This document shows, piece after piece, positions 33,351-49,759 of a stretch of 54,652 nt of DNA (position 1 is the stretch's first letter; each line of letters opens with the position of its first letter). The stretch is from assembly GCA_018715145.1 (NCBI GenBank), contig DVMD01000079.1, positions 1 through 54,652 on the forward strand, in the 5' to 3' direction. The notes under the pieces are model-generated. The model was not told where the DNA came from. It was given only the letters and a program-made list of their open reading frames with translations, and ran no database searches. The position numbers and the translations under genes are program-made. This DNA comes from Candidatus Onthocola stercorigallinarum (lineage in GTDB: Bacteria > Bacillota_I > Bacilli_A > RF39 > UBA660).

Positions 33351-34230
33351 AGTTGTTATTTTTAAAATTTTGATACCAATTATTTAATTTATCTTTGGCA
33401 CTGTTCCACAAACTAGATGATACATCTCCGATAAAATTAATGGCATTTTTAGTATAATACACAAGTTCATCTTTAGCATCAATAATACTTTGATAATTAT
33501 CTTCCCCTAGTTTCTCTCTGGCAAAATCATTTAAATCATTAGCGCCCTTTTTAATTATTTCGCTAGCTTTATTAAAAGCATTACTTGCTTTATCACTAAT
33601 AGTTTCTTTATATCCTGGAAATTTATTTTCAATAGCACTATCTATACTACTAGCAATTTCTAATACTTTCTTTTTACCACTATCACTTAGTTCATCAAAA
33701 GTAACACCATTAATCTCACCATCATAAAATAGAAAATCAACAACACTTATAAATGTTGCTTTAGCACTATCTTTAAAACTAGAAGTAACTTCACTACTTC
33801 TTACAGTACTTAAAGTATCATTTAAACTATTAATTACTTCAGTATCTTTATCACTGTATGTAATAGTATTACTATTATTTGTGTTAGTATTATTAGTATT
33901 GGTATTGGTATTATTTATTATTTCTTCTTTTTTATCAATTATACTCTCATTTACTTTATCTTTATTTATAGTTGTATTATCCTTTACAGTATCTTTAAAT
34001 TCTTCCATTTCATCTGATACTATATTATCTTCACTAACTTTATTTTCTTCATTACTTACAGTATCATTAGTTACTTTGTTACTTGTTTTATTATCACTAA
34101 TACTCGCGCTTATATCACTACTTTTATATTCTTTTTTTTCTATTATATTAAAAGTAATTACTAATCCAATAGCTAAAAATATAACACCACCAAGAATTAC
34201 AATAAGATTTTCTTTTTTCATATACAACAC
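33349..34230 (-). CDS. Membrane-anchored protein with N/T-rich low-complexity spacer and helical C-terminal domain
   Basis: TM segment LIVILGGVIFLAIGLVITFNII and an NTNTNTNNTNTNNSNT tract. Confidence 0.7.
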   Translation of the reverse strand: MLYMKKENLIVILGGVIFLAIGLVITFNIIEKKEYKSSDISASISDNKTSNKVTNDTVSNEENKVSEDNIVSDEMEEFKDTVKDNTTINKDKVNESIIDKKEEIINNTNTNTNNTNTNNSNTITYSDKDTEVINSLNDTLSTVRSSEVTSSFKDSAKATFISVVDFLFYDGEINGVTFDELSDSGKKKVLEIASSIDSAIENKFPGYKETISDKASNAFNKASEIIKKGANDLNDFAREKLGEDNYQSIIDAKDELVYYTKNAINFIGDVSSSLWNSAKDKLNNWYQNFKNNN

Positions 34231-34292
34231 CTATATATATTATATAGCAAATAGTATATTTTTTCAATTATCTTCAACTACTATTTTTTATT

Positions 34293-34323
34293 AAAAAAAC
34301 TTAGTTATATTGCAAACTAAGTT
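34293..34323 (-). terminator. Rho-independent terminator after the 57-codon ORF
   Basis: Perfect 9-bp stem AACTTAGTT-atattgca-AACTAAGTT. The forward A7 run (34293-34299) is a U-tract on the minus strand. Confidence 0.55.
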
Positions 34324-34328
34324 AGTGT

Positions 34329-34502
34329 TTATTCAACAGTTTGAACTAAGTCTGATATCACAATGGTTTTTGATACTAATAACTCTTTTTGAGTTTGATT
34401 TTGAACAATTATTGTATAAGTATGGTTTAAAAATGCATTAATTCCTACTGAAGTTAAACTAGTAAAGTCCCAACCATCAAAATTTAATAAATTTATAGTC
34501 AT
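34329..34502 (-). CDS. Short ORF (57 aa), possibly a gene remnant
   Basis: Hand-translated: MTINLLNFDGWDFTSLTSVGINAFLNHTYTIIVQNQTQKELLVSKTIVISDLVQTVE. GGAGG lies 16 nt upstream of the ATG, which is poor spacing. Terminators flank the ORF on both sides. Confidence 0.2.
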   Translation of the reverse strand: MTINLLNFDGWDFTSLTSVGINAFLNHTYTIIVQNQTQKELLVSKTIVISDLVQTVE

Positions 34503-34556
34503 ATTACCAAAGGCACTGCCTCCAATTAGGTACCCCTATTTTTTCCCATTCTACCC

Positions 34557-34579
34557 AAAAAAATCAACCGTTCGGTTGA
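34557..34579 (-). terminator. Rho-independent terminator (minus strand) inside the large intergenic gap
   Basis: TCAACC-gttc-GGTTGA. The forward A7 run (34557-34563) gives a U-tract on the minus strand. Confidence 0.45.
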
Positions 34580-34703
34580 AAATTATACAATTTTTGACAG
34601 AAACCAAAAATTGTTGAAATTAAGATTTTATTTTACTCCTATAATTTATCTCATACTTCTTTATGTTCTTTTGCTAATTTTATTCTTTCTAATTTAATAT
34701 TTT

Positions 34704-34730
34704 TGTCGAACCATGTCTAGTTTTGTCGAA
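34704..34730 (+). promoter_or_regulatory. Three 10-bp-phased Spo0A-type (0A box) heptamers
   Basis: TGTCGAA (34704-34710), TGTCTAG (34714-34720) and TGTCGAA (34724-34730). The 0A box consensus is TGNCGAA. Box, 3-bp spacer, box is the known tandem arrangement. Confidence 0.5.
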
Positions 34731-34734
34731 TCGC

Positions 34735-34762
34735 TTGCAATATCAAAATTTTTCTTTATAAT
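34735..34762 (+). promoter_or_regulatory. SigmaA-type promoter immediately downstream of the 0A boxes
   Basis: TTGCAA (34735-34740), a 16-nt spacer, then TATAAT (34757-34762). Confidence 0.5.
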
Positions 34763-34862
34763 AGATAACTGTTACCTGTATTGGTGAGGCATCGTGTTGT
34801 CCAACTTTCCTCCTTCTTTGGGGGTTAAGGAAGGTTATCCTGTAAAGGAGCGTGATAATGCA

Positions 34863-34946
34863 ATGAACGAAGATATTTTTCTTCAAGTAATTATAATTCT
34901 GGTAATCATTATTTATGGTAACCAGAAAAAAGACGCCAACAAATGA
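34863..34946 (+). CDS. 27-aa hydrophobic peptide (type I toxin-like or sporulation micropeptide)
   Basis: MNEDIFLQVIIILVIIIYGNQKKDANK. The SD AAGGAG is at 34845-34850 and a complementary CTCCTT is at 34810-34815 in the leader. A two-codon uORF ATGCAATGA overlaps the start. Confidence 0.4.
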   Translation: MNEDIFLQVIIILVIIIYGNQKKDANK

Positions 34947-34992
34947 AATGTAGCGTCAACCAAACTTGATGCTACCCAATATGGGTAACTAC
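34926..34992 (-). ncRNA. Candidate cis-antisense small RNA, convergent with the 27-aa ORF
   Basis: The minus-strand promoter is TTGCAT (35027-35022), a 17-nt spacer, then TATATT (35004-34999). The RNA has a hairpin TACCCA-tat-TGGGTA, then the terminator GACGCTA...TGGCGTC plus T6 (34957-34926). It overlaps the last 21 nt of the peptide ORF. Confidence 0.3.
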
Positions 34993-35033
34993 ATATATAA
35001 TATAGCAAAAATTTAATAATTATGCAATTATTT

Positions 35034-36215
35034 TTATAAAATATCTTCAAATTGTTTTTCTTCTTCTTTAATTTTTATTACTTGTTTTGTTTTTATTGCT
35101 TCATTAATTAATTCTTCATATGGTATTAGTTTTTCATATTCTAGACATTTACTAAGTTCTGGATTAATTACAGGATGAACTGGTACAAATACTGTACAAC
35201 AATCTTCATAAGGTAAAGTACTTATATCAAATGTTCCTATTTTTTTAGCAATATCAATTATTTCTAATTTATCAAAACAAGCAACTGGTCTAATTACAGG
35301 CATATCTACAACAGCATTAATAACAGACATACTAGTTAAAGTTTGACTAGCAACTTGACCAATAGATTCACCATTAACTATTATTTTAGAGTTTTCGCTC
35401 TTAGCAATCCTCTCAGCTATTCGATACATCATTCTGCGCATTATGGTAATTAAATATTCATAAGGAATATTTCTTAAAATTGTTTCTTGAATTTTAGTAA
35501 AGTTAATGCCGTATAAAGTCATGTTTGGGTTATATTTAGATAACACTCGAGCTAGTTTAATTACCTTATCTTTAGCCGCCTTGCTTGTGTGCGGTGGAGA
35601 TTCAAAATAAAGAGCTGATAGTTTTACTCCCCTTTTTATTGTTAAGTAACCTGCAACTGGAGAATCAATTCCTCCGGATAACATAAGTAGGCCTTTACCT
35701 AAAGTACCAACAGGATAACCACCTAGGCCAGGAATTCCTTTTGTATAATAAAGAATAGCATCTTTTCTAATTTCCACATGAATAATAACTTCGGGATTAT
35801 GAACATCTACCTTGCATTCTTTATTTTTTAAAATAACACCCCCAAGTTTTCTGCTTAATTCCATACTATCAAGCGGATATTCTTTATCACTTCTTTTGGT
35901 TTCGACTTTAAATGTTTTAAATTCTTGCGTTTTAATTAAATCTAAAACATTTTTGGCAATTGCTTCAATTTCTCTATCTTCATCGATAAATCCGATGACA
36001 ATTTCATGAATACCAAAGGTATGAAGTAAAACATCTATTGTTTTATCTATATTATCTTCACTAACAATAATAAACATTCTTCCTCGGTCATAACTAATTG
36101 TATGATTCCACATTAAAGCATTATCAATATTATTCTTGAGTGTCTTTAAAAAGAAATTAATATTAGCTTTTTTAGTTGATAATTCTGCATATTTTAAAAT
36201 GATTATTTTTTCCAT
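35034..36215 (-). CDS. thiI: tRNA 4-thiouridine(8) synthase ThiI
   Basis: THUMP-type N-terminus and the PP-loop LMLSGGIDSPVAGY. Confidence 0.9.
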   Translation of the reverse strand: MEKIIILKYAELSTKKANINFFLKTLKNNIDNALMWNHTISYDRGRMFIIVSEDNIDKTIDVLLHTFGIHEIVIGFIDEDREIEAIAKNVLDLIKTQEFKTFKVETKRSDKEYPLDSMELSRKLGGVILKNKECKVDVHNPEVIIHVEIRKDAILYYTKGIPGLGGYPVGTLGKGLLMLSGGIDSPVAGYLTIKRGVKLSALYFESPPHTSKAAKDKVIKLARVLSKYNPNMTLYGINFTKIQETILRNIPYEYLITIMRRMMYRIAERIAKSENSKIIVNGESIGQVASQTLTSMSVINAVVDMPVIRPVACFDKLEIIDIAKKIGTFDISTLPYEDCCTVFVPVHPVINPELSKCLEYEKLIPYEELINEAIKTKQVIKIKEEEKQFEDIL

Positions 36216-39972: not shown

Positions 39973-40021
39973 AATAATTTTCCTTTCAACAAGCATTATA
40001 TCAAACTAAAGTTAAATAATT

Positions 40022-40038
40022 TGTCGAACTATGTCGAC
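40022..40038 (+). promoter_or_regulatory. Tandem Spo0A-type boxes in a divergent intergenic region
   Basis: TGTCGAA (40022-40028), spacer cta, then TGTCGAC (40032-40038). Confidence 0.45.
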
Positions 40039-40046
40039 ATATTAAG

Positions 40047-40067
40047 TATAGACAAAATTTGTCTATA
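40047..40067. promoter_or_regulatory. Perfect 10-1-10 palindrome (operator-like)
   Basis: TATAGACAAA-A-TTTGTCTATA. Confidence 0.4.
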
Positions 40068-40135
40068 AAGCAAGTAAAATTAATAATAATTTAATTAAAT
40101 GGACATATAATTAAGTAGATTAAATGGAGGGTATT

Positions 40136-40621
40136 ATGGTAAATAAACAAAATTTATGGTTTGTAACATTATTTTCATTAATTTTAGTATTAGGTATTTA
40201 TTATGTTAGTATGGGAGATGAAACTCTGGCAACTCTTGCGGGAGATAATGATGTCTCCGAGGTTGTAGAAGTAACAGAGTCGGATGTAATTGTAGCTTTG
40301 CAGGTTGAAGATGATGAATCAGTATTAGAACAAATGACGGAATATCAAAATATATTACTTGACTCATCTGCAACACTTGAAGAAAAAAATGACGCCTACG
40401 AGGGATTACAAGCCCTGAACAATAATCAAAGTGAATGTGAAAAAATTGAAAAATTAATTAGTGATGAATTTAAATATGATAATTTTGTCAAAATTGATGG
40501 CGATACTATTAGTATAGTTATTGCAAGTAGTGATCATAATACAGAAATTGCTAATAAAATAATTAGAGCAGTTCAAGAACTTTATGATACTCAAAAATAT
40601 ATTACAGTTAAATTTGAATAA
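40136..40621 (+). CDS. SpoIIIAH-like protein
   Basis: ATG 40136 lies 5 nt after GGAGG (40126-40130). The protein has an N-terminal TM segment, an acidic linker and a C-terminal domain resembling SpoIIIAH (…KIDGDTISIVIASSDHNTEIANKIIRAVQELY). Confidence 0.5.
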   Translation: MVNKQNLWFVTLFSLILVLGIYYVSMGDETLATLAGDNDVSEVVEVTESDVIVALQVEDDESVLEQMTEYQNILLDSSATLEEKNDAYEGLQALNNNQSECEKIEKLISDEFKYDNFVKIDGDTISIVIASSDHNTEIANKIIRAVQELYDTQKYITVKFE

Positions 40622-40954: not shown

Positions 40955-41860
40955 ATGTTAAGAAAATCATCCATTAGAAGAATAATGCTAGCAACTCTTG
41001 CTCTATTTTTATTATTAATTATTTATTTTTTTCCAACTACCCCAAGTATTTCTGAATCACTTTCCTATATAGAAAAAGAAGAAATGCCAATATTTTTAGT
41101 AGATAATATGGAATATATTGCTAGAACATCAATTGTTAAAAATAGTGATAATACCGATGATTTAATTAAAGAAGTTATTGAAAGTCTAACTATTGGATCA
41201 AATAAATCTAACTATATTCGTGAGGGTTTTAAAGCAGTAATTCCGGAGGGTACTAAAGTATTAGATATAAAGCTAGAAGATAGTATTTTAACTATTAATT
41301 TTAGTAAAGAACTTTTAAATGTCTCTCAAGACAGCGAAGAAAAAATGCTAGAAGCTATAATCTATTCTCTTACCGAAATAGATAGTGTAAAAAAGATCAA
41401 AATACTAGTTGAAGGTGAACATTTAACTAATCTACCAAATAGTAATAAAAAAATACCAGAACTTTTAGATAAAAATTATGGTATTAATAAAATATATAAC
41501 CTAGATTCAATTAAAGATACTAGCAAAACTACTATATATTATTTAAGTAAATATAATGACTATTATTACTATGTTCCTGTAACTAAAATTAGTAATGAAA
41601 ACCTTGAGAAAGCGGAAATAATTATTAATGAACTAAAAACCACTCCGATTTATCACACTAATTTAATAAGCTACTTGGCCGCATCAACTAATTTAACTAA
41701 TTATGAAATACTTGAAAATAGTATATCTCTATCTTTTGATAATCACTTGCTCGCAGGTATTGATGATGAAGATATGCTTGAAGAAGTTAAATATGCCATT
41801 TCCCTATCTATTAGAGATTCTTATGGCATCGATGAAGTAATATTTAATATTTCAGAATAG
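40955..41860 (+). CDS. GerM-domain (germination protein M-like) lipoprotein/membrane protein
   Basis: N-terminal hydrophobic anchor and two GerMN-like modules (IPEGTKVLDIKLEDSILTINFSKELL). Confidence 0.7.
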   Translation: MLRKSSIRRIMLATLALFLLLIIYFFPTTPSISESLSYIEKEEMPIFLVDNMEYIARTSIVKNSDNTDDLIKEVIESLTIGSNKSNYIREGFKAVIPEGTKVLDIKLEDSILTINFSKELLNVSQDSEEKMLEAIIYSLTEIDSVKKIKILVEGEHLTNLPNSNKKIPELLDKNYGINKIYNLDSIKDTSKTTIYYLSKYNDYYYYVPVTKISNENLEKAEIIINELKTTPIYHTNLISYLAASTNLTNYEILENSISLSFDNHLLAGIDDEDMLEEVKYAISLSIRDSYGIDEVIFNISE

Positions 41861-45265: not shown

Positions 45266-45314
45266 AATTTTACCTCCTTGGCTCTATATAATAGCACACT
45301 CATTTTAAAAAATT

Positions 45315-45331
45315 TGTCGAACAATGTCGAT
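45315..45331 (+). promoter_or_regulatory. Tandem Spo0A-type boxes between the PBP and Rpn genes
   Basis: TGTCGAA (45315-45321), spacer caa, then TGTCGAT (45325-45331). Confidence 0.4.
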
Positions 45332-49131: not shown

Positions 49132-49353
49132 TTATTTTAAAACATCTAAAACTGAAGTGATTAAATCCATATTTTCTACTACATTATTAATTTTATCAGT
49201 TACGCGTTCTTTATACTTAATTTTCATATCTTCATTAAATTTTTTATAATCTATAGCTCCCCGATTTAATTCTTTAAAATAATATGAATTTTCTTTTAAT
49301 TGCCTATAGCTTTTAGCATTTTCTCTAAACTGCATTTGTAAATATATTTGCAT
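49132..49353 (-). CDS. YlbE-like small protein
   Basis: 73 aa. The pattern YRQLKENSYYFKELNRGAIDYKKF resembles Bacillus YlbE from memory. It is coupled to the upstream YlbD-like gene. Confidence 0.45.
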   Translation of the reverse strand: MQIYLQMQFRENAKSYRQLKENSYYFKELNRGAIDYKKFNEDMKIKYKERVTDKINNVVENMDLITSVLDVLK

Positions 49354-49712
49354 TAGTCCTCAAAAAATTTATTTAATGGTCTTGGAGCAACTGGTCCTTT
49401 ATTTAAATTATTAATAGGATTTTGGGGAGTTTTCTTAGTTAAATCTCCAATAAAATCAATTGCTTTTTGGGCAGTATTGATATGACTTTTAATAGAATCA
49501 ACATTGACATTTTTAACCATATCGGTAATTTTAGAAATACTATCAACTGCAGCACGATCATTATTTAAAATGTATTTATTCCAAACACTTTCATCTTCCC
49601 CATAAATATCATATAATTCATAAAATTTCTGCCATGTCATTTCCCCGCTTTGAACATATTTAATTAATTCTGGTTTTGTTTTAATAAAATTTTTAAATGC
49701 TTCATGTTTCAT
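49353..49712 (-). CDS. YlbD-like (putative coat) protein
   Basis: ATG 49712 sits behind GGGTGA. The sequence FKNFIKTKPELIKYVQSGEMTWQKFYELYDIYGEDESVWNKY resembles Bacillus YlbD from memory. Confidence 0.45.
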   Translation of the reverse strand: MKHEAFKNFIKTKPELIKYVQSGEMTWQKFYELYDIYGEDESVWNKYILNNDRAAVDSISKITDMVKNVNVDSIKSHINTAQKAIDFIGDLTKKTPQNPINNLNKGPVAPRPLNKFFED

Positions 49713-49759
49713 ATAAAAAATCACCCACTAAATTTTATGAATTAAGTGAGTGATTTATC

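What the first reader, a model, noticed from the sequence alone, without database searches (positions are those of the whole stretch)
34704..35027. Spo0A-box-fronted promoter driving an anti-SD leader and a 27-aa hydrophobic peptide, opposed by a small convergent antisense RNA (type I toxin-antitoxin-like module under predicted sporulation control)
This module lies in the largest non-coding gap of the window (34231-35033).

- Upstream boxes: TGTCGAA, TGTCTAG and TGTCGAA start at 34704, 34714 and 34724, in exact 10-bp phase. They abut TTGCAA, a 16-nt spacer, then TATAAT (34735-34762). TGNCGAA is the Spo0A 0A box, and box plus 3-bp spacer plus box is the tandem arrangement known from B. subtilis abrB-type sites.
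- Leader: the predicted leader carries CTCCTT (34810-34815), complementary to the SD AAGGAG (34845-34850). A two-codon uORF ATGCAATGA overlaps the start codon.
- Peptide ORF: 34863-34946 encodes MNEDIFLQVIIILVIIIYGNQKKDANK, one hydrophobic helix with a Lys-rich tail.
- Antisense RNA: on the other strand, TTGCAT, a 17-nt spacer, then TATATT (35027-34999) would give an RNA of about 65 nt. It ends at a hairpin plus T6 (34957-34926) and is complementary to the last 21 nt of the ORF and its 3' UTR.

This is the txpA/ratA- or bsrG/SR4-style architecture (3'-overlapping antisense, SD-sequestering leader, tiny membrane peptide). The novelty is the predicted Spo0A input. The alternative reading is a SpoVM-like sporulation micropeptide.
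Basis: partly seen in the sequence, partly recalled or inferred. Interest (0 to 1): 0.75.

Follow-up and report, generated by a model that had tools for sequence, protein, structure and literature searches.

The report
Small toxin gene with opposing antisense RNA
A roughly 350-bp cassette beside thiI encodes a 27-residue membrane-type peptide on a tightly folded mRNA, opposed by a small antisense RNA: a new multi-copy family of the known "type I toxin-antitoxin" kind in uncultured gut Bacilli, possibly controlled by the sporulation regulator Spo0A.

Summary
Comparison with about 25 related copies shows a real, conserved cassette.

- **Two promoters.** A sense promoter (TTGCAA-16-TATAAT) and a convergent antisense promoter (TTGNAN-17-TATATT) are kept while the spacers drift.
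- **A real coding ORF.** The 26-29-codon ORF evolves like a gene: changes at codon positions 1/2/3 are 41/12/53, and pN is mostly below pS. It encodes a hydrophobic core with a charged tail.
The roughly 220-nt mRNA is closed by a 14+7-bp helix between its 5' and 3' ends. This helix covaries across copies (fold z = -7.2). The roughly 65-nt antisense RNA is complementary to the 3' strand of that helix.
- **Behaviour of the cassette.** It sits in at least five genomic contexts, in tandem copies, as decayed copies, and as swapped alleles behind one promoter.

This fits a new family of 3'-overlapping type I toxin-antitoxin modules. There is no Rfam, Pfam, plasmid or phage match.

The tandem TGTCGAA boxes are conserved in the family and match the Spo0A core. 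Spo0A's presence and binding could not be tested. Toxicity and transcripts remain unproven.

The parts
34704..34730 (+). Three 7-bp boxes in 10-bp phase (TGTCGAA cca TGTCTAG ttt TGTCGAA). They end 4 bp upstream of the -35 and match the Spo0A 0A-box core.
   Evidence: They are identical or near-identical in L001, L002 and L110. Tandem TGTC-type boxes lie upstream of the -35 in all 13 sense promoters recovered. The core motif is defined in PMC3485338.
34735..34762 (+). Sense (peptide mRNA) promoter: TTGCAA, 16 nt, TATAAT.
   Evidence: 10 of 12 consensus matches. It is conserved as TTGCAA-16-TATAAT or TTGCNT-17-TAGAAT in 13 copies.
34769..34989 (+). Predicted peptide mRNA of about 220 nt. The 5' end is inferred from the -10 box. 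The 3' end is uncertain because no + strand terminator was found.
   Evidence: Fold of -79 kcal/mol, z = -7.2, against z = -3.7 for the same span on the minus strand. Homologues fold with z = -6.95 and -8.45.
34771..34794 (+). 5' strand of the closing helix: P1a GTTACCTGTATTGG (34771-34784) and P1b GGCATCG (34788-34794).
   Evidence: Covariation is shown.
34967..34989 (+). 3' strand of the closing helix: P1b TGATGCT (34967-34973) and P1a CCAATATGGGTAAC (34976-34989). This stretch is also the target of the 5' part of the antisense RNA.
   Evidence: P1a is 99.5% paired in 14 sequences, and 3 pairs change on both sides. G-U pairs fit the + strand only.
34838..34850 (+). Small hairpin UCCU-GUAA-AGGA that hides the Shine-Dalgarno AAGGAG (34845-34850).
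   Evidence: pair probabilities 0.87-1.0. The SD is mostly paired in 5 representative homologues.
34863..34946 (+). 27-codon ORF encoding MNEDIFLQVIIILVIIIYGNQKKDANK (hydrophobic core, charged tail).
   Evidence: ORFs of 26-29 codons are kept in most copies; codon-position changes are 41/12/53; L105 differs from the window only by synonymous changes, including CTG to TTA.
34926..34957 (-). Terminator of the antisense RNA: GACGC/GCGTC hairpin followed by T6. It overlaps the last 21 nt of the ORF, so the A-run encodes the Lys-Lys of the peptide tail.
   Evidence: The stem is 100% paired with 2 covarying pairs. The U-tract is present only on the minus strand in all copies.
34999..35027 (-). Antisense promoter: TTGCAT, 17 nt, TATATT.
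   Evidence: TTGNAN-17-TATATT is kept in 19 distinct copies with variable spacers, including copies not next to thiI.
34926..34992 (-). Predicted antisense RNA of about 65 nt: a 5' hairpin (GUUACCCA/UGGGUAGC) followed by the terminator hairpin.
   Evidence: -21.3 kcal/mol, z = -3.7. The ends are inferred from the promoter and terminator. No transcript data exist.
34858..34866 (+). Two-codon uORF ATGCAATGA overlapping the start codon. It is probably incidental.
   Evidence: Present in the window, L088-L090, L094, L098 and L103 subgroups. A similar overlap occurs in L099. No equivalent exists in L001 or L095.

Best explanation
The segment 34700-35030 is a self-contained cassette of about 350 bp of the type I toxin-antitoxin kind.

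**Inferred from sequence and comparison**
- A sigma-A-type promoter drives an mRNA of about 220 nt for a 27-residue peptide with a hydrophobic core.
- The mRNA is locked into a compact fold. Its first 24 nt pair with its last 23 nt (closing helix P1), and its Shine-Dalgarno sequence sits in a local hairpin, so the full-length transcript should be stable but poorly translated.
- A convergent promoter makes an antisense RNA of about 65 nt. This RNA ends at its own hairpin plus U6 terminator inside the 3' end of the ORF. It is perfectly complementary to the ORF's last 21 nt, the 3' UTR and the 3' strand of P1.

**Inferred by analogy with txpA/RatA and bsrG/SR4**
- The antisense RNA pairs with the mRNA's 3' region and displaces the 5' strand of P1. 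This creates a long duplex for RNase III and exposes both mRNA ends, so the peptide is not made while the antisense RNA is present.
- If the antisense RNA is lost, the peptide is made and damages the membrane.

**Hypothesis only**
- The tandem TGTCGAA boxes just upstream of the -35 probably bind a response regulator, most likely Spo0A~P. That would couple toxin transcription to entry into sporulation. The direction of control is unknown. Repression, as at the phage phi29 and Nf early promoters, is at least as likely as activation.
For: **Homologues.** Copies lie downstream of thiI in L001, L002, L003 and L006. Others sit elsewhere: L059 (helicase/ZnuA-like context), L088 and L089 (thioesterase/miaA context), L090, and 13 metagenome loci L091-L103.

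**Promoters.** Both are conserved with fixed spacing and drifting spacers.

**Coding signal.**
- ORFs of 26-29 codons have a hydrophobic 13-mer with Kyte-Doolittle score of 3.0 or more in 13 of 16 variants.
- Codon-position differences are 41/12/53.
- pN/pS is 0.03/0.51, 0.10/0.40, 0.11/0.31 and 0.24/0.68 in four comparisons.
- L105 differs from the window in the ORF by 3 synonymous and 0 non-synonymous changes, including CTG to TTA.

**Structure.**
- z-scores are -7.2, -6.95 and -8.45.
- P1a is 99.5% paired and the whole structure 91% paired, against 31-42% when partners are slid.
- 7 pairs change on both sides, and only 2 of 500 shuffles reach that number.
- L059 and the L012-type copies keep the closing helix with a quite different sequence.
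- G-U pairs and the strand asymmetry of folding assign the helix to the + strand.
- The SD is mostly paired in 5 homologues.

**Selfish-element behaviour.**
- L005 and L080 lack the cassette.
- Tandem copies occur in L090, L094, L102 and L103, and L091 carries two copies about 3 kb apart. Five contigs come from one sample.
- Decayed copies: a frameshift in L093, lost stop and lost antisense -35 in L090b, a deleted promoter in L088 and L089, a deleted ORF in L102b and L032, and ATG to ATA in L032.
- Alleles are swapped behind an identical promoter in L110.

**Organisation.** It matches the Gram-positive families in which the antisense RNA lies 3' of the mRNA and overlaps the ORF (PMC8594479).

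**Boxes.**, with PMC3485338 and PMC2731898.
Against: - No transcript, toxicity or antitoxin data exist. Everything is inferred from sequence.
- No + strand terminator follows P1 in the window-type copies, so the mRNA's 3' end is unknown.
- The hydrophobic core is short (13-16 residues).
- The conserved KKD tail is confounded with the antisense terminator's U-tract.
- One allele (L002, L091, L110: MIRILKSYIMIIINIKIKFSINKKDATRK) is conserved but not hydrophobic (Kyte-Doolittle 1.85).
- No match exists to any known toxin or antitoxin family.
- The codon comparisons reuse some sequences and are short.
- For the Spo0A step: spo0A was not found in any DNA held. Eight of the 14 intergenic TTTGTCGAA sites are the cassette's own promoters, so they are not independent evidence. 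The box-to--35 distance differs by 5 bp between promoter types. The L012-type sister family lacks the boxes.
Confidence: 0.7

Rival explanations
1. The cassette encodes a non-toxic small membrane protein, for example a sporulation-linked micropeptide in the manner of SpoVM or CmpA. Its expression is tuned by a cis-antisense RNA. It is not a toxin-antitoxin pair.
For: The ORF is clearly under purifying selection. The promoter carries 0A-like boxes. The window holds sporulation-linked genes: SpoIIIAH-like, Germane-domain and YlbD_coat. Toxicity is untested.
Against: - Housekeeping micropeptides are normally single-copy and syntenic. This cassette is multi-copy and tandem, sits in at least five contexts, is absent from close relatives, and is often decayed or allele-swapped.
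- The core is uniformly hydrophobic rather than amphipathic.
- No Pfam match was found at E up to 10.
- A locked mRNA paired with a dedicated antisense RNA is the hallmark of type I toxin genes (PMC8594479).
Confidence: 0.15
2. The functional products are two non-coding RNAs (a structured sense RNA and its antisense partner), and the short ORF is incidental.
For: RNA structure is the best-conserved feature. ORF-less derivatives persist with an intact promoter and closing helix in L032, L034 and L014. AT-rich sequence easily yields Ile/Lys/Asn-rich ORFs.
Against: Substitutions show three-base periodicity (41/12/53), pN is mostly below pS, and double synonymous Leu changes occur. The SD and start codon are kept at workable spacing in most copies. 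The sister subfamily's peptide is conserved through 6 synonymous changes against 1 replacement.
Confidence: 0.05
3. There is no separate antisense RNA. The hairpin plus T6 at 34957-34926 is simply the thiI terminator, and the promoter-like hexamers are chance AT-rich matches.
For: thiI ends at 35034 and needs a terminator, so read-through from thiI must end at this hairpin. The -35 matches consensus at only 3 of 6 positions and was not listed by the scan.
Against: TTGNAN-17-TATATT is kept with exact spacing in 19 distinct copies while the spacer varies. This includes copies that are not downstream of thiI: L059, L088, L089, L094, L099, L102 and L103. In the metagenome hits the -10 is conserved by construction of the search pattern, but the -35 and its spacing are not.
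Confidence: 0.07
4. The TGTCGAA repeats are not Spo0A sites. They bind another direct-repeat-recognising regulator, or they are only inherited parts of the cassette's promoter.
For: - All box-bearing promoters are homologous, so conservation may reflect descent.
- The box distance to the -35 differs by half a helical turn between promoter types.
- The L012-type sister family lacks the boxes.
- The site upstream of the SpoIIIAH-like gene is not kept in close relatives.
- spo0A was not seen in any DNA held.
Against: - The match to the 7-bp Spo0A core is exact, and the 3-bp tandem spacing is as at known sites (PMC3485338, PMC2731898).
- The boxes are the most conserved part of the upstream region while the flanks diverge.
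- Two further tandem sites in the window are intergenic and unrelated to the cassette.
- TTTGTCGAA is 78% intergenic against 10.6% of sequence.
- The nearest named relative belongs to order RF39 (PMC8035907), and RF39 is predicted to sporulate (PMC10868615).
Confidence: 0.5

Closest known systems
TxpA/RatA and BsrG/SR4 (with BsrE/SR5 and YonT) type I toxin-antitoxin systems of Bacillus subtilis
   Same: Convergent genes. The antisense RNA lies on the 3' side and overlaps the 3' end of the toxin ORF (organisation per PMC8594479). The toxin is a small hydrophobic peptide with a charged C-terminus. The SD is partly hidden. The expected mode of action is duplex formation at the 3' end followed by mRNA decay (from established knowledge of these systems).
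   Different: - No sequence or covariance-model similarity was found.
- The peptide is shorter: 26-29 aa against 38-59 aa.
- Here the antisense target includes one strand of a long-range closing helix between the 5' and 3' ends.
- The promoter carries tandem 0A-like boxes.
- The host is an uncultured RF39-like lineage, and the cassettes are chromosomal, multi-copy and not seen on phages or plasmids.
hok/Sok (plasmid R1) and AapA1/IsoA1 (Helicobacter pylori)
   Same: The full-length toxin mRNA is held inactive by a long-distance pairing between its 5' and 3' ends, together with SD sequestration. This is the 'fold-back inhibition' principle (Franch et al. 1997 as cited in PMC8594479; PMC6733600).
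   Different: In those systems the antisense RNA targets the 5' or translation-initiation region, and activation requires 3' trimming. Here the antisense RNA is complementary to the 3' strand of the closing helix itself. Those systems are Gram-negative families and share no sequence similarity with this cassette.
Fst/RNAII (par locus of pAD1, Enterococcus) and the Fst/Ldr superfamily
   Same: Convergent toxin mRNA of about 200 nt and antisense RNA of about 65 nt. The toxin is a tiny peptide with a hydrophobic N-terminal part and a charged tail.
   Different: In par the two RNAs share a bidirectional terminator, and the inhibitory contacts are at 5' direct repeats outside the overlap (PMC8594479). 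Here the terminator works on one strand only (the U-tract is on the minus strand), and the antisense RNA resembles, rather than complements, the mRNA's 5' end. No Pfam or Rfam match was found.
Spo0A-repressed early promoters of phages phi29 and Nf
   Same: Tandem 0A boxes, perfect or imperfect, separated by 3 bp and abutting the core promoter of a selfish element (PMC2731898). This offers a rationale: silence a harmful function when the host sporulates.
   Different: Those are phage promoters with binding shown experimentally. Here binding is only predicted, and the boxes lie wholly upstream of the -35, so activation is equally possible.
Clostridioides difficile type I toxins (CD-toxin/RCd pairs)
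   Same: Small peptides with a hydrophobic N-terminal region and a lysine-rich C-terminus, in multiple copies per genome (PMC6563280).
   Different: The C. difficile modules are associated with prophages, CRISPR arrays or the skin element, and their toxins are 30-56 aa. No sequence similarity was found. The cassette here is not phage-associated.

Membership tests
Type I toxin-antitoxin system (generic) | Small (under 60 aa) hydrophobic peptide ORF that is really coding | tested here: met
   27 aa with a hydrophobic 13-mer scoring 3.6 on the Kyte-Doolittle scale. Codon periodicity is 41/12/53 and pN is mostly below pS.
Type I toxin-antitoxin system (generic) | Cis-encoded antisense RNA with its own promoter and terminator, overlapping the toxin mRNA | tested here: met
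   Met at the sequence level only. TTGNAN-17-TATATT and a minus-strand hairpin plus U-tract are conserved in 19 copies. No transcript data exist.
Type I toxin-antitoxin system (generic) | Structured toxin mRNA with a sequestered ribosome-binding site | tested here: met
   z = -7.2. The closing helix covaries. The mean probability that the SD is unpaired is 0.00-0.43 in 5 homologues.
Type I toxin-antitoxin system (generic) | The peptide is toxic when expressed, and the antisense RNA neutralises it | not testable with these tools
   Needs expression experiments. Decayed and promoter-less copies are only indirect hints of counter-selection.
Known Gram-positive antitoxin RNA families held in Rfam (RatA, SR4-type, par RNAII, SprF-type and others) | Match to the family covariance model | tested here: not met
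   No hit at gathering score in the whole window. At E up to 10 over 34200-35100 there were only chance-level hits to unrelated families.
Known toxin peptide families in Pfam and PADLOC (Fst, TxpA-like, SpoVM and others) | Profile match of the peptide | tested here: not met
   No families at E up to 10 for the window and L001 peptides. Power is low for peptides of 27-29 aa.
hok/Sok-type fold-back-inhibited toxin mRNAs | Long-distance pairing between the 5' and 3' ends of the toxin mRNA | tested here: met
   A 14+7-bp helix is present in all full-length copies and covaries.
hok/Sok-type fold-back-inhibited toxin mRNAs | The antisense RNA targets the 5' leader or translation-initiation region | tested here: not met
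   The antisense RNA is complementary to the 3' end (34926-34992). Its 5' part resembles, rather than complements, the mRNA's 5' arm.
Spo0A regulon promoter | One or more matches to the 0A-box core TGTCGAA, typically in tandem with 3-bp spacers | tested here: met
   Two perfect boxes and one 5-of-7 box in 10-bp phase. Eleven of 13 sense promoters recovered carry a perfect core box within 45 bp upstream of the -35. The motif is defined in PMC3485338 and PMC2731898.
Spo0A regulon promoter | The genome encodes Spo0A | not testable with these tools
   No spo0A lies in the 1.14 Mb of DNA held (the query sequence was recalled from memory). Indirect support: the window holds SpoIIIAH-like, Germane-domain and YlbD_coat genes, the nearest named relative belongs to RF39 (PMC8035907), and RF39 is predicted to sporulate (PMC10868615).
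Spo0A regulon promoter | Spo0A~P binds and changes transcription | not testable with these tools
   Needs EMSA, footprinting or ChIP, plus expression data.

The most novel reading that the evidence does not exclude
The cassettes are a family of selfish type I toxin-antitoxin modules that have placed their toxin promoter under the sporulation master regulator Spo0A. Spo0A~P would then switch toxin transcription as the cell enters sporulation. One possibility is silencing, so that the dormant spore does not inherit a stable toxin mRNA without its unstable antitoxin. The other is induction, as a killing or lysis factor. In addition, the antitoxin would act by a mechanism not described before: it invades the closing helix between the mRNA's 5' and 3' ends by competing with the mRNA's own 5' end, which it resembles.
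Probability: 0.3. Interest if true: 0.8.

Novelty: new member of a known kind. Interest (0 to 1): 0.6.

Why it matters
- **Reach of type I systems.** These systems are almost unknown outside cultured model bacteria, because the genes are too small to be annotated. Gene callers missed this 27-codon ORF or extended it wrongly. This cassette extends them to an uncultured, genome-reduced gut lineage close to RF39. It also provides about 25 natural variants, including intact, decayed and allele-swapped copies, for studying their evolution.
- **A distinctive RNA design.** The antitoxin resembles the mRNA's 5' end and competes with it for the mRNA's 3' end. That is a clear, testable structure-function case.
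- **A possible link to sporulation.** If the 0A-like boxes are real Spo0A sites, this would link a toxin-antitoxin module directly to the decision to sporulate. It would also give a first cis-regulatory handle on Spo0A in a lineage whose sporulation is only predicted from gene content.
- **A practical point.** The cassette is a repeat that breaks metagenome assemblies near thiI and elsewhere.

Tried and rejected
- **Rfam.** The gathering-score scan of the whole window found only a tRNA. The E-value scan over 34200-35100 gave only chance-level hits.
- **Peptide profiles.** Pfam and PADLOC returned nothing.
- **Plasmids and phages.** blastn of the cassette found only 40-nt AT-rich chance hits.
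- **Viral contigs.** A scan for the promoter 17-mer gave 7 hits, all inside coding sequence with no promoter or RNA. They were rejected as chance.
- **Peptide alignment search.** The 50-aa GTG-extended ORF was used instead.
It is 8.3 kcal/mol worse, and the SD pairs with 34838-34841.
- **The uORF** is not conserved.
- **P1 and SD exposure.** Removing the 3' arm does not change predicted SD accessibility. P1 is therefore more likely to act on stability and antisense access than on SD masking.
- **Independent 0A-like sites.** The site upstream of the SpoIIIAH-like gene is not conserved in close relatives, so it adds little.
- **spo0A search.** tblastn against all DNA held found nothing.
- **Alignment limits.** An arms-only MAFFT alignment misplaced the L006 bulge. 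In the full alignment the P1b register differs between subgroups, so only 68% of its cells pair by column. No covariance model was built because the RNA of about 230 nt exceeds the practical size limit.
- **The 57-aa neighbouring ORF** has no family beyond near-identical copies.
Full report
**1.

Every motif is at the coordinates given:
- Boxes TGTCGAA, TGTCTAG and TGTCGAA start at 34704, 34714 and 34724.
- TTGCAA-16-TATAAT lies at 34735-34762.
- AAGGAG is at 34845-34850.
- The ORF at 34863-34946 encodes MNEDIFLQVIIILVIIIYGNQKKDANK.
- On the minus strand, TTGCAT-17-TATATT lies at 35027-34999, and a GACGC/GCGTC hairpin plus T6 lies at 34957-34926.

The window comes from an AT-rich, uncultured gut lineage of Bacilli. 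The flanking genes are thiI (35034-36215, minus strand), a cysteine desulfurase and ezrA. The closest thiI relatives are MAGs labelled uncultured Bacilli or Tenericutes. A relative at 63% ThiI identity is Candidatus Coprovivens, which is assigned to order RF39 (PMC8035907).

**2.

- The + strand RNA 34769-34995 folds at -79 kcal/mol, z = -7.2. The same span on the minus strand gives z = -3.7.
- The fold is closed by a long-range helix. GUUACCUGUAUUGG (34771-34784) pairs with CCAAUAUGGGUAAC (34976-34989). GGCAUCG (34788-34794) pairs with UGAUGCU (34967-34973).
- No Rfam family matches, even at E up to 10.

**3. It is a conserved cassette**

Homologues lie downstream of thiI in L001, L002, L003 (ThiI 91-93% identical) and L006 (70%). 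L005 and L080 (73-74%) lack the cassette cleanly.

Further copies come from three sources:
- L059, in a helicase/ZnuA-like context.
- L088-L090, found by a protein search with the 50-aa GTG-extended ORF. These sit in a thioesterase/miaA context.
- Thirteen metagenome loci, L091-L103.

A profile search counts 25 hits. These include tandem pairs in L090, L094, L102 and L103, two copies about 3 kb apart in L091, and five contigs from one sample.

A sister subfamily (L012, L017, L029, and a decayed copy next to thiI in L032) has the same architecture. Its peptide is MDYLIILIVLLVVLSKIYSKKD.

**4. The ORF is coding**

- Sixteen variants are 22-29 aa, and the window-type copies are 26-29 aa. Thirteen have a strongly hydrophobic 13-mer.
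- Summed over ten comparisons, differences at codon positions 1/2/3 are 41/12/53. pN is below pS in most, for example 0.03 against 0.51 for L012 and L029. The comparisons are short and share some sequences.
- L105 is 93.6% identical to the window over the cassette. Within the ORF it differs only by CTG to TTA (Leu), GTA to GTT (Val) and TGA to TAA.
- The conserved KKD tail is confounded. Its AAAAAAGACGC sequence is also the U-tract and stem of the antisense terminator.

**5. The RNA structure covaries**

This was counted on the 14-sequence alignment A6:
- P1a is 99.5% paired, and 3 of its 14 pairs change on both sides.
- The terminator stem is 100% paired, and 2 of its pairs covary.
- The whole structure is 91% paired, against 31-42% when partners are slid by 1-3 columns.
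- Seven pairs change on both sides, and only 2 of 500 shuffles reach that number.
- P1b pairs in only 68% of cells by column, because its register differs between subgroups. It forms in each sequence folded alone.
- L059 and the L012-type copies keep the closing helix with different sequence.
- Eleven G-U cells in P1a would be A-C mismatches on the other strand, so the helix belongs to the + strand RNA.

The SD is predicted to be mostly paired in five homologues. Removing the 3' arm does not change predicted SD exposure.

**6. The antisense RNA**

- TTGNAN-17-TATATT is kept in 19 distinct copies while the 17-nt spacer drifts. This includes copies far from thiI. The -10 was part of the metagenome search pattern, so only the -35 and its spacing count as independent evidence for those hits.
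- The hairpin has a U-tract only on the minus strand in all copies.
- The predicted RNA of about 65 nt (34992-34926) is complementary to the last 21 nt of the ORF, the 3' UTR and the 3' strand of P1. Its 5' part (GUUACCCAUAUUGGGUAGCAUC) resembles the mRNA's own 5' arm (GUUACCUGUAUUGGUGAGGCAUC). The two must therefore compete for the same partner.

**7. Mechanism**

Shown by sequence analysis: two convergent conserved promoters, a coding hydrophobic ORF, a locked and covarying mRNA fold, a hidden SD, and a 3'-overlapping antisense RNA.

Inferred by analogy with the Gram-positive 3'-overlap families (organisation per PMC8594479): antisense pairing opens P1, forms a duplex of about 65 bp for RNase III, exposes the mRNA ends, and prevents peptide synthesis. 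The peptide is presumed to be membrane-toxic.

The cassette behaves like a selfish toxin-antitoxin module:
- It is present or absent among close relatives.
- It occurs in tandem and dispersed copies.
- It breaks assemblies: 61 of the 71 blocks carrying the neighbouring 57-aa ORF hold contigs under 2 kb.
- Its decay is varied: a frameshift in L093, loss of the stop codon and of the antisense -35 in L090b, a deleted promoter in L088 and L089, a deleted ORF in L102b, L032 and L034, and ATG to ATA in L032.
- In L110 a different allele sits behind an identical promoter.

**8. The Spo0A question**

In favour:
- TGTCGAA is the exact 0A core, and Spo0A proteins of both B. subtilis and C. difficile recognise it (PMC3485338).
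- Tandem boxes 3 bp apart next to a core promoter repress phage Nf and phi29 early promoters (PMC2731898).
- All 13 sense promoters recovered carry two or three 10-bp-phased TGTC-type boxes. Eleven have a perfect core.
- TGTCGAANNNTGTC occurs three times in the window against 0.22 expected, and all three sites are intergenic. One is upstream of a SpoIIIAH-like gene.
- TTTGTCGAA is 78% intergenic, against 10.6% of the sequence.
- The window encodes SpoIIIAH-like, Germane-domain and YlbD_coat proteins. RF39 is predicted to sporulate (PMC10868615).

Against or untested:
- Eight of the 14 intergenic sites are the cassette's own promoters.
- The site upstream of the SpoIIIAH-like gene is not kept in close relatives.
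- Box positions differ by 5 bp between promoter types.
- The sister subfamily lacks the boxes.
- No spo0A lies in any DNA held.

I put Spo0A control at about 0.4, with the direction of control unknown.

**9. Comparison and novelty**

In organisation the cassette works like txpA/RatA and bsrG/SR4. In its pairing between the 5' and 3' ends it resembles hok and aapA1. It matches none of their RNA or peptide models. It has no plasmid or phage relatives. No paper links type I systems to RF39, and a review of clostridial type I systems reports no Spo0A-controlled case. It is a new family of a known kind.

**10. Verdict**

- The finding is real and well placed.
- The type I toxin-antitoxin reading has confidence of about 0.7.
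- The Spo0A link is an attractive but unproven addition.
- Interest is 0.6.

Noticed in passing
window 34329-34502 (-), leader 34503-34600: A 57-aa orphan ORF with a GGAGG ribosome-binding site lies in the same 'non-coding' gap. Only near-identical copies exist among 5.8 billion proteins. Its leader holds an extended -10-like TTGTATAAT, followed by a hairpin plus U7 (34579-34564, minus strand) before the SD. This looks like an attenuator. A second terminator follows the ORF near 34320-34293.
   Followed up: partly
window 40020-40067 and 45313-45331: Two further tandem 0A-like sites (TTTGTCGAAC-N-ATGTCGA) are intergenic. One is upstream of a SpoIIIAH-like gene and is followed by the palindrome TATAGACAAAATTTGTCTATA. 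The other lies between a class B penicillin-binding protein gene and an unknown 303-aa gene. The first site is degraded or absent in close relatives (L001-L004).
   Followed up: partly
window 40124-40621, 40955-41860, 49353-49724: Sporulation-linked genes are present: SpoIIIAH-like, a Germane-domain (GerM-like) protein and YlbD_coat. They suggest that this genome-reduced lineage still sporulates or did so recently.
   Followed up: partly
window 1-21000: A block that looks like an integrated conjugative element: Toprim/DUF3991 primase-like protein, DUF3848, a 2457-aa protein, a sortase, a SpaA/thioester-domain adhesin, ParA and ParB, a Bro-N protein, RhuM, and an HTH regulator at the left edge.
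   Followed up: no
L110:1380-1736 compared with window 34690-35033: A strain with an identical 57-aa ORF and an identical box-bearing promoter, and with thiI in the same position, carries a different transcribed cassette. It is the L002-type allele, whose peptide MIRILKSYIMIIINIKIKFSINKKDATRK is not hydrophobic. The allele appears to have been swapped behind a constant promoter. This non-hydrophobic peptide is itself conserved in L002, L091 and L110.
   Followed up: partly
L032:5624-5800, L034:5760-5923 (-), L014:8298 onward: ORF-less derivatives of the cassette persist as RNAs of about 100 nt. They keep the box-bearing promoter, the 5' arm, a matching 3' arm and a terminator. They could be decay products or small RNAs derived from the cassette.
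   Followed up: partly
L012:9345-9601 (-), L017, L029: In the sister subfamily the closing helix extends to about 28 bp and is followed directly by a U7 run. The whole-molecule closing helix may therefore double as the mRNA's terminator. These copies have no TGTCGAA boxes.
   Followed up: partly
L002-L004, L088, L092, L096, L100, L103 (contig ends): Many public contigs end inside or next to the cassette. Most contigs carrying the neighbouring 57-aa ORF are under 2 kb. The repeat evidently breaks short-read assemblies of this species.
   Followed up: partly
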